Positions 21,001 through 24,000 of a stretch of 64,000 bases of DNA are shown here, in pieces. The first letter of the stretch is position 1. Each line of letters begins with the position of its first letter. The stretch is taken from the NCBI RefSeq assembly GCF_056746865.1, contig NZ_CM163382.1; one strand, 5' to 3'. Made by a program: the position numbers.

Positions 21001-24000
21001 CCCGACGTTTTTTGATTTTCCCCTGATATGATTTACGTGCCTGGCGAATTTTTGTTCCCACTGAACCTGCGTGAACACTTTGCCCTCAGCCATCCAGTAA
21101 TCCCGGAATGCAGCAAGTTCAGCAGGTGTAAATTCCGGTTCCGGCAGGGCCGTTCCCCACAGCGCAGCACGCCGTCGAAAATCCGGCGACGGATGCCAGC
21201 CATCGGTCATCGGAAATTTCCCAATAGGTTCACTCAGGCCATCCAGAAATGCAGGTTCTGCCACCTGCAACGGCGTACCGTTCGCTTCACTGGTCGGAGC
21301 ACCCTCGCGCACGTGCGCTATGTGTGGGGTTTTATATATATCTTCCTCTTCCTCTTCCTCTGGTAACTCCTTTTGTAACGCTGTTGGCGTTACTTTTTGC
21401 GTTACTCGTTTTCGATGCTCTGCCACTCTTCTATTCGTAAGTGCACGTTTTTTCGATGATTCTCCATTATGTCGCTCAAAGTTTGGAAGAATTAGTTTGC
21501 CGTCATGATAAGCAAGCCATCCGACGCTAATGAGGGCGTCAGCAAATCCTGTAATAAAAGCGAGTCTATCAAGTACTCCTTTTGTAACGCTGCCAGCGTT
21601 ACCGTCTATTGTTTGCTGGTCAGCCCATGCCCATATACGAACCAGCTTTCCAAGAACAGCATCTGGATCAATACCCAGAATTTCTGCTATCTGAAAAATT
21701 TCAGGTTTATCAGGAGTGATAACTTCAACCTTAATCCAGCTGCTTGCCATAGGTTTCCCCTCTTGCACTCTTTAGTGCACAAGCAAATTCATTACGATGG
21801 CGGTTGGCGCTATTCATTGCACATTCAACACATGTTCCGTTCAGAACATACCTTTCAGAGAGATGGCCGTGACGGCACCGCTTTCCTGTGAAATAGCGAT
21901 TTAACCCGGCTTTTGCGGCCTCCATTCTGGTTACTATCTTCAATTTTTCCGCCCCTTTTTGTTATTGATATTGGCTATTTTGCACAATTGGAAAATTTGA
22001 TCAACCAGATTTGGTTTTTTATTACCTTTGAGGTACGAATAGATATGAAAAGACCGCCGGGTGGCGGTCTACAGAGGGTTGTAGCTGGATATCATGAGTA
22101 GAAGAAGTATGCCAGTTCTGCTTTTGAGCGCAGCCATTGTCTTGTTTTACAGGCTTTAAAAAGCCCATTCATCAATACCTTACCTGGCATTTTGCGCTTG
22201 CCTGTTAAGTGAGTCTGGATATAGTGACTCGTCGTTCCGGCTTCCTGTGCGAAGGCTTCACGCTCATCCGGAGTAAGTGCAAGCCAGTGCTTTTTGAAAT
22301 CGAAATGTCCGTTATCGCTCATAGCTATTGCCTGATATTTATTTCAGATAATAAATATTCACCCATAAGGTAACAAAAATCAAGGATGGTTACCTATGAG
22401 GTGCATTTACCTGTTGGGTAATATTGCTTTAAATTGAATCATCTACTGATTCATATATGAGGCGATTTTCCAGAAAATGAAAAGTATCCAGGACGTCCGC
22501 AGGCAAAATCTCAACGACTTGATCGACCGTGAATTCAATGGTGTTCAGACGCGGATGGCAGAAAAACTTGGAACTCAGGCAAATCTGGTAAACCGCTGGG
22601 CTCTTGGCAAGAAGGTTATCGGCGACCAGGTTGCGCGAAAAATTGAAGCTGCCGCCAATAAACCCCGTAACTGGCTTGATATCGATCGCTCGCTTTCTCA
22701 GGAAGGTTTTCAGCCTGTCGGCCCAAGCGACATTGGTCAGCTGGCGGCTCACAACCTGGAACGCTGGATGAGCGAAAGCCGCGACCTTTCAACACAGGGA
22801 AAACTTCACCGCGCATCCGGCGTCGCCCAGGTGACAATCAGCCGCCTGTTAAACAATGAGGTCAGCGTTTCCATTTCCACCCTGGAGAATGTTGCATCCG
22901 CATTCGGGCGTCACGGATATGAACTACTGATTCACCCGCACGACCCTGCGACTATCAACTATGACCGCTCACGCTACGCATTGTTACCCGAAACCGAGAA
23001 AGCAAAGATCGAAAGTTACATTGAATTTGTCATCAACCAGAACGAAAAAAGCAAACAATAAAACTATATTTTTCAGTAAGTAAGCCGCCTCATGGCGGCT
23101 TTTTTATTGCCTATACTATTACCTAATGGGTAATTTTTTTAACTCATATCTATTGACATCAAACCAAATACGCATAATTATTACCTAAACGGTAACAGAC
23201 CGAGGTAACAAGTTATGCAGTGGAAAATCATCAACGGTTGGTACTGCGTTACTGCATGCGGATTCATGAGCTGGAAGTTCCGCACCTTACAGGAAGGCAT
23301 TAAGTGGGCTTTCGTCAGCAAAGAAGCTCGCGATGTGGCCAACGATAACGAGATATGGGAGTAGGTTAGCAAATGAGTGAATTATCAATCATCGAAATCA
23401 CACCAGACATGGCACCAAGAATTTACGTTGAAAAAGGGCTGGAAAAGTTTCTCGAGCAGATCCGTGAAGGTGTTAATGAAGTGCCTGACATTAGCACAGA
23501 CAAAGGCAGAAAGCGCATTGCATCTCTGGCTGCGAAGGTTTCAAGAAGTAAAACAGCGGTAGAAAAACCAGGACGTGATTATCTGAAACGCCTGAAAGAA
23601 CAGCCGAAAGTAGTTGAAGCAGAGTTACGACGCTTCGTAACCGAATGCGATCGGCTTCGTGATGAAGTACGCCGCCCACTCACCGAGTGGGAAAATGCTG
23701 AGAAATTACGCACTGAAGCACTGCAACAACGCCTGACAAATTTGCGAGCACTAGCTGACGTGATCGATCTCTCCGGAAACTACTTGCCATCATCTGATAT
23801 TCAGGAACGAATTCAAGAGGCTAAATCAGTAGCACTTGATGAAAGTTGGCAGGAGTACGCAGCAGAAGCTGGAGTAGCCAAGGATTCAACCATCAAGAAA
23901 CTGGAAGAATCACTCGCAGTAGCTCAAAAACGCGAGCATGAAGCCGCTGAGCTGGAGCGACTTCGCAAAGAAGCGGAGGAAAAAGCGCGCATTGAGCGAG

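What the first reader, a model, noticed from the sequence alone, without database searches (positions are those of the whole stretch)
21320..21610. Iteron-like palindromic repeats and an AT-rich tract inside the O-like gene: candidate origin
Within the coding sequence of the replication initiator there is a TTTTATATATAT tract (21329-21342), a (CTT)n run encoding a poly-Glu linker, and two copies of a 28-bp element ACTCCTTTTGTAACGCTG-NNN-GCGTTAC (21366-21393 and 21575-21602), each containing the inverted repeat GTAACGC-N5-GCGTTAC, plus an extra GCGTTAC at 21399. Lambda-type phages place ori iterons and an AT-rich region inside the O gene, so this matches that architecture.
Basis: partly seen in the sequence, partly recalled or inferred. 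Interest (0 to 1): 0.45.

Follow-up and report, generated by a model that had tools for sequence, protein, structure and literature searches.

The report
Phage replication origin inside initiator gene
The repeats are real, conserved DNA signals (7-base units spaced 12 bases apart, next to an easily melted tract) inside a prophage replication-initiator gene. They are most likely the phage's replication origin, which is the expected lambda-like layout but in a large initiator family whose origin I could not find described.

Summary

- **The gene.** It lies at 20920-21750 on the minus strand and is followed by a lambda-P-type helicase loader. It encodes a two-domain initiator: an N-terminal winged-helix-like domain with no Pfam family, and a C-terminal DnaT-like domain.
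- **The repeat unit.** The unit is a heptamer, GTAACGC/GCGTTAC, at a 12-nt period, not a 28-bp element. Cluster A has 2 heptamers (21584-21602). Cluster B has 3 perfect and 1 degenerate heptamer (21363-21405).
- **The adjacent tract.** Cluster B abuts a 21-nt polypurine tract (21341-21361) and a 12-nt AT run (21330-21341).
- **Conservation.** In 92 distinct relatives the heptamers occur at 15.1/kb in this part of the gene and 0.30/kb elsewhere. Third-codon positions inside them are 97% conserved against 66% outside. The 5-nt spacers vary freely.
- **Reading frames.** The same DNA is read in different frames in different members, for example ALPEKRREE, VTREEKRRE and QRREEK.
- **Covariation.** Five lineages carry a variant heptamer (GTCACGC, GTTACGC, GTGACGC, GTTGCGC twice), and it is altered at both clusters together.
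- **Partners.** The downstream partner varies: P-like, DnaC-like or DnaB-like.

It works like lambda ori but is not a lambda-O homologue. I file it as a new member of a known kind, of moderate interest.

The parts
20920..21750 (-). Replication initiator gene (276 aa from the ATG at 21750; an upstream GTG at 21768 is also in frame)
   Evidence: ORF list. PHROG 2509 'replication initiation protein' matches both halves. RefSeq names it 'DnaT-like ssDNA-binding domain-containing protein'.
21376..21750 (-). Coding region for the N-terminal domain (aa 1-125), predicted winged-helix-like and the presumed iteron-binding domain
21584..21602 (.). Iteron cluster A: GTAACGC-tggca-GCGTTAC on the coding strand (gene nt 149-167). 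It lies in codons 50-56 (GNAGSVT), a loop of the N-terminal domain.
   Evidence: Both heptamers are at least 97% conserved in 59 distinct sequences. Some relatives carry an added heptamer in a 12-nt insertion here.
21363..21405 (.). Iteron cluster B: GTAACGC aaaaa GTAACGC caaca GCGTTAC aaaag GAGTTAC on the coding strand (gene nt 346, 358, 370, and a degenerate fourth at 382), with an exact 12-nt period
   Evidence: In relatives the 5-nt spacer takes at least 17 different values while the half-sites stay fixed, and the fourth unit is a perfect GCGTTAC in many members.
21366..21393 (.).
   Evidence: the repeat finder family D1
21575..21602 (.).
   Evidence: the repeat finder family D1, 89% identity
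21341..21361 (.). Polypurine/polypyrimidine tract: AGAGGAAGAGGAAGAGGAAGA on the coding strand. It encodes EEEEEE here and is a candidate part of the unwinding element.
   Evidence: It is invariant in all five sequences of alignment A1. The family-wide equivalent, CCAGAGAAGAGAAGAGAAGAG, is read in three frames.
21330..21341 (.). AT run (ATATATATAAAA on the coding strand). It is a candidate melting site and also the junction at which the N-domain/origin module and the C-terminal module are exchanged between phages.
   Evidence: BLAST homology blocks break at query positions 427-442, which is window 21326-21341.
21010..21216 (-). C-terminal DnaT DNA-binding domain (aa 179-247)
   Evidence: Pfam PF17948, E=1.1e-18. 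NCBIfam DnaT, 93 bits, below its 201-bit cut-off.
20172..20948 (-). Lambda-P-type helicase loader gene, overlapping the end of the initiator gene by 29 nt
   Evidence: Pfam PF06992 Phage_lambda_P, E=1.7e-55. PHROG 109 'P-like helicase loader'.

Best explanation
Window 21330-21602 is the prophage's replication origin, embedded in its initiator gene.

Proposed mechanism:
1. The initiator's N-terminal winged-helix-like domain binds the GTAACGC heptamers. They are arranged at one per 12 bp as a convergent array: forward units, then reverse units.
2. Cluster B (3 perfect and 1 degenerate unit) directly abuts a polypurine tract and an AT run, which is where the duplex is opened.
3. Cluster A (2 units, 209 bp upstream) adds binding sites that could be brought together with cluster B in one nucleoprotein complex.
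4. The C-terminal DnaT-like domain then recruits the adjacent lambda-P-type loader and, through it, host DnaB.

What is shown:
- The repeats are a conserved DNA-level element tied to this N-terminal domain family.
- They sit in a replication module.

What is inferred:
- That the initiator itself binds them.
- That melting occurs at 21330-21361.
- That the two clusters cooperate.
- That the C-terminal domain recruits P.
For: 1. Rarity: there are only two full palindromes in 64 kb, both in this gene, against 0.18 expected.
2. Enrichment: in 92 distinct relatives the heptamer density is 15.1/kb within gene nt 130-450 and 0.30/kb elsewhere in the loci.
   - 214 of 253 close neighbour pairs are exactly 12 nt apart.
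   - Orientations of close neighbours are 160 forward-reverse, 40 forward-forward, 51 reverse-reverse and only 2 reverse-forward.
3. Synonymous sites: third-codon positions inside the heptamers have majority frequency 0.97 against 0.665 outside. The heptamers are the only fully conserved 7-mers in the N-domain coding region. The 5-nt spacer takes at least 17 values.
4. Frame independence:
   - In the window, cluster A starts at codon position 2 and cluster B at codon position 1.
   - In the more divergent relatives resembling the MN652886 'Rac' gene, cluster B starts at codon position 2.
   - The identical DNA GCGTTACCAGAGAAGAGAAGAG is translated ALPEKRREE in L090 and VTREEKRRE in L093. Its GCGCAAC-variant equivalent reads QRREEK in L085 and L173.
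5. Covariation of the two clusters in five variant lineages:
   - L171: GTCACGC/GCGTGAC.
   - L172: GTTACGC/GCGTAAC.
   - L170: the asymmetric pair GTGACGC-N5-GCGTAAC at both clusters.
   - L173 and L085: GTTGCGC/GCGCAAC.
6. Copy number varies by whole 12-nt (4-codon) units, from 2 to 8 per gene. This parallels the extra lambda-type iterons that add residues to O in Stx phages (PMC7466680).
7. Replication context is constant while the partner varies: P-like (window), DnaC-like YdaV, DnaB-family helicase. Of 67 close relatives, 32 combine a DnaT-like C-terminus with a P-like gene, and 24 have neither.
8. Module exchange breaks exactly at the AT/polypurine tract, so the N-domain and the repeats travel together.
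9. The N-domain model is winged-helix-like.
10. No Rfam family matches the region.
Against: - There is no experimental evidence of binding, unwinding or autonomous replication for any family member that I could find.
- The AT run is only 12 nt, and seven intergenic stretches nearby are less stable.
- Concerted evolution of the two clusters could also come from gene conversion between repeats, without selection by a cognate binding protein.
- Initiator-binding sites inside the gene could serve autoregulation rather than origin firing, or in addition to it.
- Cluster A lies 209 bp from the putative melting site, and its role is a guess.
Confidence: 0.77

Rival explanations
1. The heptamers are binding sites for the initiator or for another phage or host protein, but they act in regulation rather than as the site where replication starts. 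Possible roles are autorepression, a transcriptional roadblock in the early-right operon, or copy control by pairing of the two clusters. The true origin would lie elsewhere.
For: - The clusters lie inside the early operon, so occupancy would affect read-through to the loader gene.
- The two clusters 209 bp apart could loop.
- The AT run is modest.
Against: - Family-wide, cluster B always abuts the conserved polypurine/AT tract. That is the geometry of an iteron array plus unwinding element.
- The element co-travels with the N-terminal domain through exchanges of the C-terminal domain and partner gene.
- There is no DnaA box cluster or other origin-like repeat array nearby.
- A host-factor site is unlikely to be kept across Gamma- and Betaproteobacterial and metagenomic hosts and to change in step at both clusters.
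Confidence: 0.1
2. The palindromes act as nucleic-acid hairpins. They could be an intrinsic terminator on the antisense (+) strand (GTAACGCTGTTGGCGTTAC followed by TTTTTG), or an mRNA stability or processing element on the coding strand.
For: - The consensus scan flags 21375-21393 and 21584-21602 on the + strand as terminator-like.
- The single strands fold better than all shuffles, with z-scores of -3.5 to -5.0.
- L171 and L172 change both arms in a compensatory way.
Against: - Many units are direct repeats with no inverted partner: 40 forward-forward and 51 reverse-reverse neighbour pairs. An example is GTAACGCaaaagGTAACGCaattaGTAACGC.
- L086 cluster A has only direct repeats.
- L170 keeps the same non-complementary pair, GTGACGC/GCGTAAC, at both clusters.
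- Cluster A has no T run after it.
- No Rfam match.
- A terminator inside an essential early gene, at two places and across thousands of relatives, has no obvious rationale.
Confidence: 0.04
3. The repeat reflects a protein-level repeat. An internal duplication of the peptide GNAxSVT would be needed by the protein, with no cis-acting DNA role.
For: - G50, N51, A52, V55 and T56 are at least 90% conserved in the protein alignment.
- Many members repeat (G/S/C)NAxSVT in the linker.
Against: - In the window and close relatives the second copy is read in another frame (VTPTALQKEL), so the peptide is not repeated there although the DNA is.
- Synonymous positions are frozen.
- The following tract is read in three frames.
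- The variable part is exactly the 5-nt spacer, not the codon wobble positions.
Confidence: 0.03
4. The conserved polypurine/AT tract and flanking repeats are kept mainly as a recombination linker: a short shared sequence that promotes exchange of modules between mosaic phages.
For: - Homology blocks to other phages break at window 21326-21341.
- The tract is invariant among otherwise 68-85% identical genes.
Against: - This explains neither the heptamer arrays, nor their 12-nt period, nor cluster A, nor the covariation.
- It is compatible with the origin reading and probably a side effect of it.
Confidence: 0.04

Closest known systems
Bacteriophage lambda ori (iterons plus AT-rich region in the middle of gene O, with the O/P initiator-loader pair)
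   Same: - The origin is embedded in the initiator gene, in the part that links an N-terminal DNA-binding domain to a C-terminal partner-recruiting domain.
- Repeated dyad-symmetric binding sites are followed, in the direction of transcription, by an easily melted tract with purine/pyrimidine strand asymmetry.
- The next gene is a true lambda-P homologue.
- It lies in the early-right operon downstream of a cro-like gene.
- Extra repeats add residues to the protein, as in Stx phages (PMC7466680).
   Different: - The initiator is not a lambda-O homologue; there is no Phage_rep_O hit.
- Lambda has four iterons (PMC7466680), about 19 bp each and in one block (size and layout from my own knowledge). 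Here the units are 7-bp half-sites at a 12-bp period, in two clusters 209 bp apart, one of them inside the coding sequence of the DNA-binding domain.
- The adjacent tract is mainly polypurine, (GAGGAA)n or (GAGAA)n, with only a 12-nt AT run.
- The C-terminal domain is DnaT-like.
oriJ / YdaU-YdaV module of the E. coli K-12 Rac prophage
   Same: - Same gene order: regulators, then initiator, then loader.
- K-12 ydaU also carries its own repeats, ATGTTCAAACA at gene nt 148, 392, 426 and inverted at 449. That is one copy in the N-domain coding part and a cluster in the linker.
- Rac is reported to have an active origin, oriJ (PMC3945230).
   Different: - K-12 YdaU has a true DUF1376 N-terminal domain with no detectable homology to the domain here (hhalign probability 0.3), and a different repeat sequence.
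- The GenBank record named 'phage Rac' (MN652886) carries a different ydaU that does belong to the family studied here.
- I could not retrieve the published position of oriJ.
Iteron origins of theta plasmids (winged-helix Rep proteins) and winged-helix replication organisers such as DnaD-NTD and RepA_N
   Same: - Repeated short sites at about one helical turn, bound by a winged-helix initiator, next to an unwinding element.
- The fold search returns these proteins among its weak top hits.
   Different: - Plasmid iterons are usually 17-22-bp direct repeats outside the rep gene.
- There are no DnaA boxes here.

Membership tests
Lambda O (Pfam Phage_rep_O) initiator and ori-lambda | N-terminal iteron-binding domain homologous to lambda O | tested here: not met
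   Pfam scan at E<=0.01 gives only DnaT (C-terminal) and no Phage_rep_O. NCBIfam gives nothing for the N-domain.
Lambda O (Pfam Phage_rep_O) initiator and ori-lambda | Origin repeats located inside the initiator gene, followed by an AT-rich tract | tested here: met
   Heptamer clusters at 21363-21405 and 21584-21602, followed by the polypurine tract at 21341-21361 and the AT run at 21330-21341. The layout is conserved family-wide.
Lambda O (Pfam Phage_rep_O) initiator and ori-lambda | Four (or six) tandem iterons of about 19 bp in one block | tested here: not met
   Units are 7 nt at a 12-nt period, 2 plus 4 units in two clusters 209 nt apart. The lambda iteron count is taken from PMC7466680.
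Lambda O (Pfam Phage_rep_O) initiator and ori-lambda | Adjacent lambda-P-type helicase loader | tested here: met
   PF06992, E=1.7e-55, for 20172-20948.
Iteron-type replication origin (generic) | Multiple copies of a short site, far above chance and confined to the origin region | tested here: met
   15.1/kb against 0.30/kb. 2 palindromes observed against 0.18 expected.
Iteron-type replication origin (generic) | The site sequence changes in step across copies and lineages (specificity covariation) | tested here: met
   Five variant lineages carry the same variant at both clusters. Protein-level proxies for the N, D, H, Y and C variants agree.
Iteron-type replication origin (generic) | Adjacent DNA unwinding element | tested here: inconclusive
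   21330-21360 is the least stable coding-region 30-mer I saw between 19.5 and 23.5 kb, but the AT run is only 12 nt and intergenic stretches are less stable. The polypurine tract is conserved.
Iteron-type replication origin (generic) | Specific binding by the cognate initiator, and initiator-dependent autonomous replication | not testable with these tools
   This needs EMSA or footprinting and an ori-cloning assay.
DUF1376 / K-12 YdaU | N-terminal DUF1376 domain (PF07120) | tested here: not met
   K-12 YdaU hits PF07120 at E=2.7e-26, but neither the window protein nor 9 relatives do. hhalign probability is 0.3.
DnaT DNA-binding domain proteins (PF17948) | C-terminal DnaT-type domain | tested here: met
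   PF17948, E=1.1e-18, aa 179-247. It is not the DnaT equivalog: 93 bits against a 201-bit cut-off.
Intrinsic (Rho-independent) terminator | Conserved complementary stem followed by a U run | tested here: not met
   Only cluster B on the + strand has a T run. Direct-repeat units and the non-complementary pair in L170 contradict a stem requirement.
Winged-helix replication initiators (DnaD-NTD, RepA_N, Rep WH domains) | Significant structural similarity of the DNA-binding domain | tested here: inconclusive
   [not shown]

The most novel reading that the evidence does not exclude
This would be the defining example of an undescribed and very widespread class of phage origin, with 7,172 representatives at the 50%-identity level.

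- A convergent array of 7-bp iterons and a polypurine unwinding tract are overprinted on the initiator's own coding sequence. The overprint is strong enough that the family's most conserved peptide motifs (GNAxSVT, and ALPEKRREEK or VTREEKRREE) are by-products of DNA-level selection.
- The heptamer variants at positions 3-4 (AA, CA, TA, GA, TG) would define separate origin-specificity groups.
Probability: 0.45. Interest if true: 0.55.

Novelty: new member of a known kind. Interest (0 to 1): 0.45.

Why it matters
- **Annotation.** It gives a concrete, testable origin for a large initiator family that has no Pfam model for its N-terminal domain. It occurs in phages such as TL-2011b and BUCT554 (genus Uetakevirus), in the MN652886 'Rac' record, and in many metagenomic phages. 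I found no literature on its origin. A sequence rule (GTAACGC units at 12 nt, then CCAGAG(AAGAG)n) could annotate origins in thousands of phage genomes.
- **Overlapping constraints.** It is a clear natural case of a cis element constraining protein sequence: the same DNA is read in three frames. This matters for interpreting conserved motifs and for recoding or synthetic-phage design.
- **Specificity.** The heptamer variants suggest origin-specificity groups, which bear on co-infection, incompatibility and module exchange.
- **Limit.** Conceptually it follows the lambda paradigm, so it extends current understanding rather than overturning it.

Tried and rejected
- **Literature.** Searches for oriJ, ydaU, DUF1376, the heptamers and the peptide motifs gave nothing on this family's origin. 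Two of them returned only noise: 'Orij' as an author name and the heptamers in primer sequences. Potrykus et al. 2000 on oriJ plasmids is not held. The Stx-phage replication-region paper does not mention iterons or DnaT.
- **Rac annotation.** The RefSeq K-12 annotation of Rac has no origin feature.
- **K-12 YdaU.** I first assumed it was the same family. This is rejected: it has a different N-domain and different repeats.
- **Solved structures.** A PDB sequence search with the family profile found nothing. Foldseek against the PDB found nothing significant.
- **Rfam.** Nothing in the region.
- **DnaA boxes.** None in or next to the gene, and the window total is at chance level.
- **The search for homologous proteins.** It returned mostly truncated proteins. 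These were useful only as leads to distant DNA.
- **Plasmid collection.** Only two phage-like circular records carry the domain, so there is no minimal-replicon evidence.
- **Scans not run.** I did not run the genome contigs or metagenome-contig scans. The family's breadth was already clear.
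Full report
**Context**

The window matches E. coli DSM 103246 (NZ_CP019944) at 100% over 20900-21800. It is 98.7% identical to phage TL-2011b and related E. coli phages. 400 of 5,426 complete E. coli genomes have some match to this stretch, and 112 of them cover most of it.

The finding lies in a minus-strand early operon:
- a cro-like gene (22092-22322);
- a small Zn-finger-like ORF (21731-21943);
- the gene in question (20920-21750, 276 aa from the ATG);
- a lambda-P-family helicase loader (20172-20948, PF06992, E=1.7e-55);
- a DUF1064 gene.

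A cI-like repressor gene lies divergently at 22477-23061.

The gene's C-terminal part is a DnaT DNA-binding domain (PF17948, aa 179-247). Its N-terminal 125 residues match no Pfam or NCBIfam model but match PHROG 2509, 'replication initiation protein'. So "O-like" is right by position and role, but not by homology.

**Observation**

- the two 28-nt copies (21366-21393 and 21575-21602, 25/28 identical), each with GTAACGC-N5-GCGTTAC;
- a further GCGTTAC at 21399-21405;
- a (CTT)n run at 21341-21361, encoding six Glu;
- TTTTATATATAT at 21330-21341, one base narrower on each side than stated.

The full palindrome, allowing 2 mismatches, occurs only twice in 64 kb, both times perfect and both times here, against 0.18 expected.

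On the coding strand the real unit is a heptamer at a 12-nt period:
- cluster A: gene nt 149 and 161;
- cluster B: gene nt 346, 358 and 370, plus a degenerate GAGTTAC at 382;
- immediately after cluster B: CC-AGAGGAAGAGGAAGAGGAAGA-TATATATAAAA.

The two copies are in different reading frames, GNAGSVTKGV against VTPTALQKEL. This already shows that the repeat is at the DNA level.

**Conservation in relatives**

I aligned the window with TL-2011b, Enterobacter phage BUCT554, Klebsiella phage ST11-OXA245phi3.2 and the ydaU gene of a record named phage Rac (MN652886, 68% identical). The half-sites and the GAR/AT tract are invariant while the 5-nt spacer varies. The Rac-record gene has an extra GTAACGC in a 12-nt insertion.

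Two IMG/VR scans gave 92 distinct gene versions:
- Heptamer density is 15.1/kb in gene nt 130-450 against 0.30/kb in the rest of the loci.
- There are 2 to 8 units per gene.
- 214 of 253 close neighbour pairs are exactly 12 nt apart.
- Orientation is ordered: forward units, then reverse units, and almost never reverse followed by forward.
- The cluster B spacer takes at least 17 values.
- In 59 distinct sequences, third-codon positions inside the heptamers have majority frequency 0.97 against 0.665 elsewhere in the domain. The heptamers are the only fully conserved 7-mers.

**Frame independence**

In the more divergent relatives resembling the MN652886 gene, cluster B is translated SNAKGNAISNAASVT (heptamers starting at codon position 2). 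In the window it is VTQKVTPTAL (codon position 1).

The tract after the last heptamer is the same DNA in many members, GCGTTACCAGAGAAGAGAAGAG. It is read as ALPEKRREE in L090 and as VTREEKRRE in L093. Its variant form reads QRREEK in L085 and L173. In the window a (GAGGAA)n version reads EEEEEE.

A HMMER search of 1.84 billion cluster representatives finds 7,172 relatives of the N-domain. Their listed sequences show the same peptide signatures. The family's conserved GNAxSVT and EKRREE motifs are therefore at least partly by-products of a DNA constraint.

**Covariation**

Five lineages with a different heptamer carry the same variant at both clusters:

| Locus | Variant |
|---|---|
| L171 | GTCACGC-N5-GCGTGAC, at both clusters |
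| L172 | GTTACGC/GCGTAAC |
| L170 | the asymmetric pair GTGACGC-N5-GCGTAAC, at both clusters |
| L173 | GTTGCGC/GCGCAAC |
| L085 (a MAG contig labelled Planctomycetales) | GTTGCGC/GCGCAAC, 4 + 4 copies |

In these loci all or nearly all copies of the variant heptamer lie inside the gene. A 41-kb circular phage-like element of Pusillimonas (Betaproteobacteria) has the canonical layout.

**Replication context and modularity**

The gene after the initiator is:
- P-like in the window;
- DnaC-like YdaV in MN652886;
- an ATP-binding protein in Pusillimonas;
- a DnaB-family helicase in L170, L171 and L172.

Among 67 close relatives, 32 combine a DnaT-like C-terminus with a P-like gene, and 24 have neither.

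BLAST homology blocks to other phages break at window 21326-21341, which is the AT/polypurine tract. So the N-domain and its repeats are exchanged as one module, and the C-terminal domain with its partner as another. This is the logic known for lambda, where the origin lies in the middle of O, iterons bind O, and an AT-rich tract follows (PMC7466680).

**Structure**

**Mechanism**

The best explanation is a lambda-type origin, with confidence about 0.77:
- The N-terminal domain binds the heptamer array.
- The adjacent polypurine/AT tract (21330-21361) melts. It is the least stable coding-region 30-mer I saw in the 4 kb examined, though intergenic stretches are less stable.
- The C-terminal domain brings in P and DnaB.

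There are no DnaA boxes. The binding, the melting site, cooperation between the clusters and recruitment of P are all inferred.

**Rivals**

- **Regulatory-only binding sites (0.10).** The conserved juxtaposition with the polypurine/AT tract fits this less well.
- **Hairpin or terminator (0.04).** The + strand of cluster B scans as terminator-like and folds well. However, direct-repeat units and the non-complementary pair kept in L170 argue against a stem requirement, and Rfam finds nothing.
- **Protein-level repeat (0.03).** The frame differences and frozen synonymous sites contradict it.
- **Recombination linker (0.04).** It explains only the junction.

**Comparison and novelty**

It works like ori-lambda but fails membership of the lambda-O family. 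It is also not the DUF1376 family of K-12 YdaU. That protein has an unrelated N-domain and its own repeats, ATGTTCAAACA, in an analogous layout.

I found no paper describing this origin. An origin embedded in the initiator gene is a well-known arrangement that already spans unrelated initiators. I therefore rate this as a new member of a known kind, with moderate interest (0.45). The interest comes from the size of the family, the clear sequence rule, and the three-frame overprinting.

Noticed in passing
window 12823, 15967, 15985, 20058, 20120, 22022, 22359, 22407, 23119, 23181: TTACC-N5-GGTAA palindromes, which look like repressor operators, occur 14 times (up to 1 mismatch) against 1.1 expected. 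They lie between the cro-like and cI-like genes, downstream of the cI-like gene, downstream of the P-like gene, near the tR1-like terminator, and far into other parts of the prophage. This suggests an unusually dispersed operator set or long-range looping.
   Followed up: partly
L089 (E. coli K-12 NC_000913.3) 3120-3977, gene ydaU: K-12 Rac YdaU (a DUF1376 protein, unrelated N-domain) carries its own repeat, ATGTTCAAACA, at gene nt 148, 392, 426 and inverted at 449. That is one copy in the N-domain coding part and a cluster in the linker, the same layout as here. It is a candidate for the iterons of oriJ.
   Followed up: partly
window 21326-21341: Homology blocks to other phages break exactly at the AT/polypurine tract. 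N-domain/origin modules and C-terminal-domain/loader modules recombine there.
   Followed up: partly
window 21731-21943 (-): A 70-aa ORF with CxxH...CxxC spacing (PHROG 1081, unknown function, no Pfam hit) occupies the position of lambda cII, and its end overlaps the start of the initiator gene. Homologous small ORFs sit in the same place in BUCT554 and the Klebsiella phage.
   Followed up: no
window 22051-22070 (-): A strong intrinsic-terminator-like hairpin (AGACCGCCACCCGGCGGTCT followed by a T run) lies between the cro-like gene and the small ORF, at a tR1-like position.
   Followed up: no
window 3838/3934, 58568/58595 and others: GCGTTAC is over-represented in the window even outside the initiator gene: 18 copies outside, against about 9 expected for the whole window. 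Two close pairs are included. I did not examine whether any of them are functional.
   Followed up: no
window 20920-20948: The initiator and P-like genes overlap by 29 nt. PHROG 15931 matches both the C-terminal half of the initiator and the P-like protein, which suggests that fused initiator-loader proteins exist in some phages.
   Followed up: no
L003 (Klebsiella phage ST11-OXA245phi3.2) 1167-2410: In this relative the initiator gene is followed directly by the DUF1064 gene, with no annotated loader or helicase. 24 of 67 close relatives likewise lack both the DnaT-like C-terminus and a P-like gene. How they recruit a helicase is unknown.
   Followed up: no
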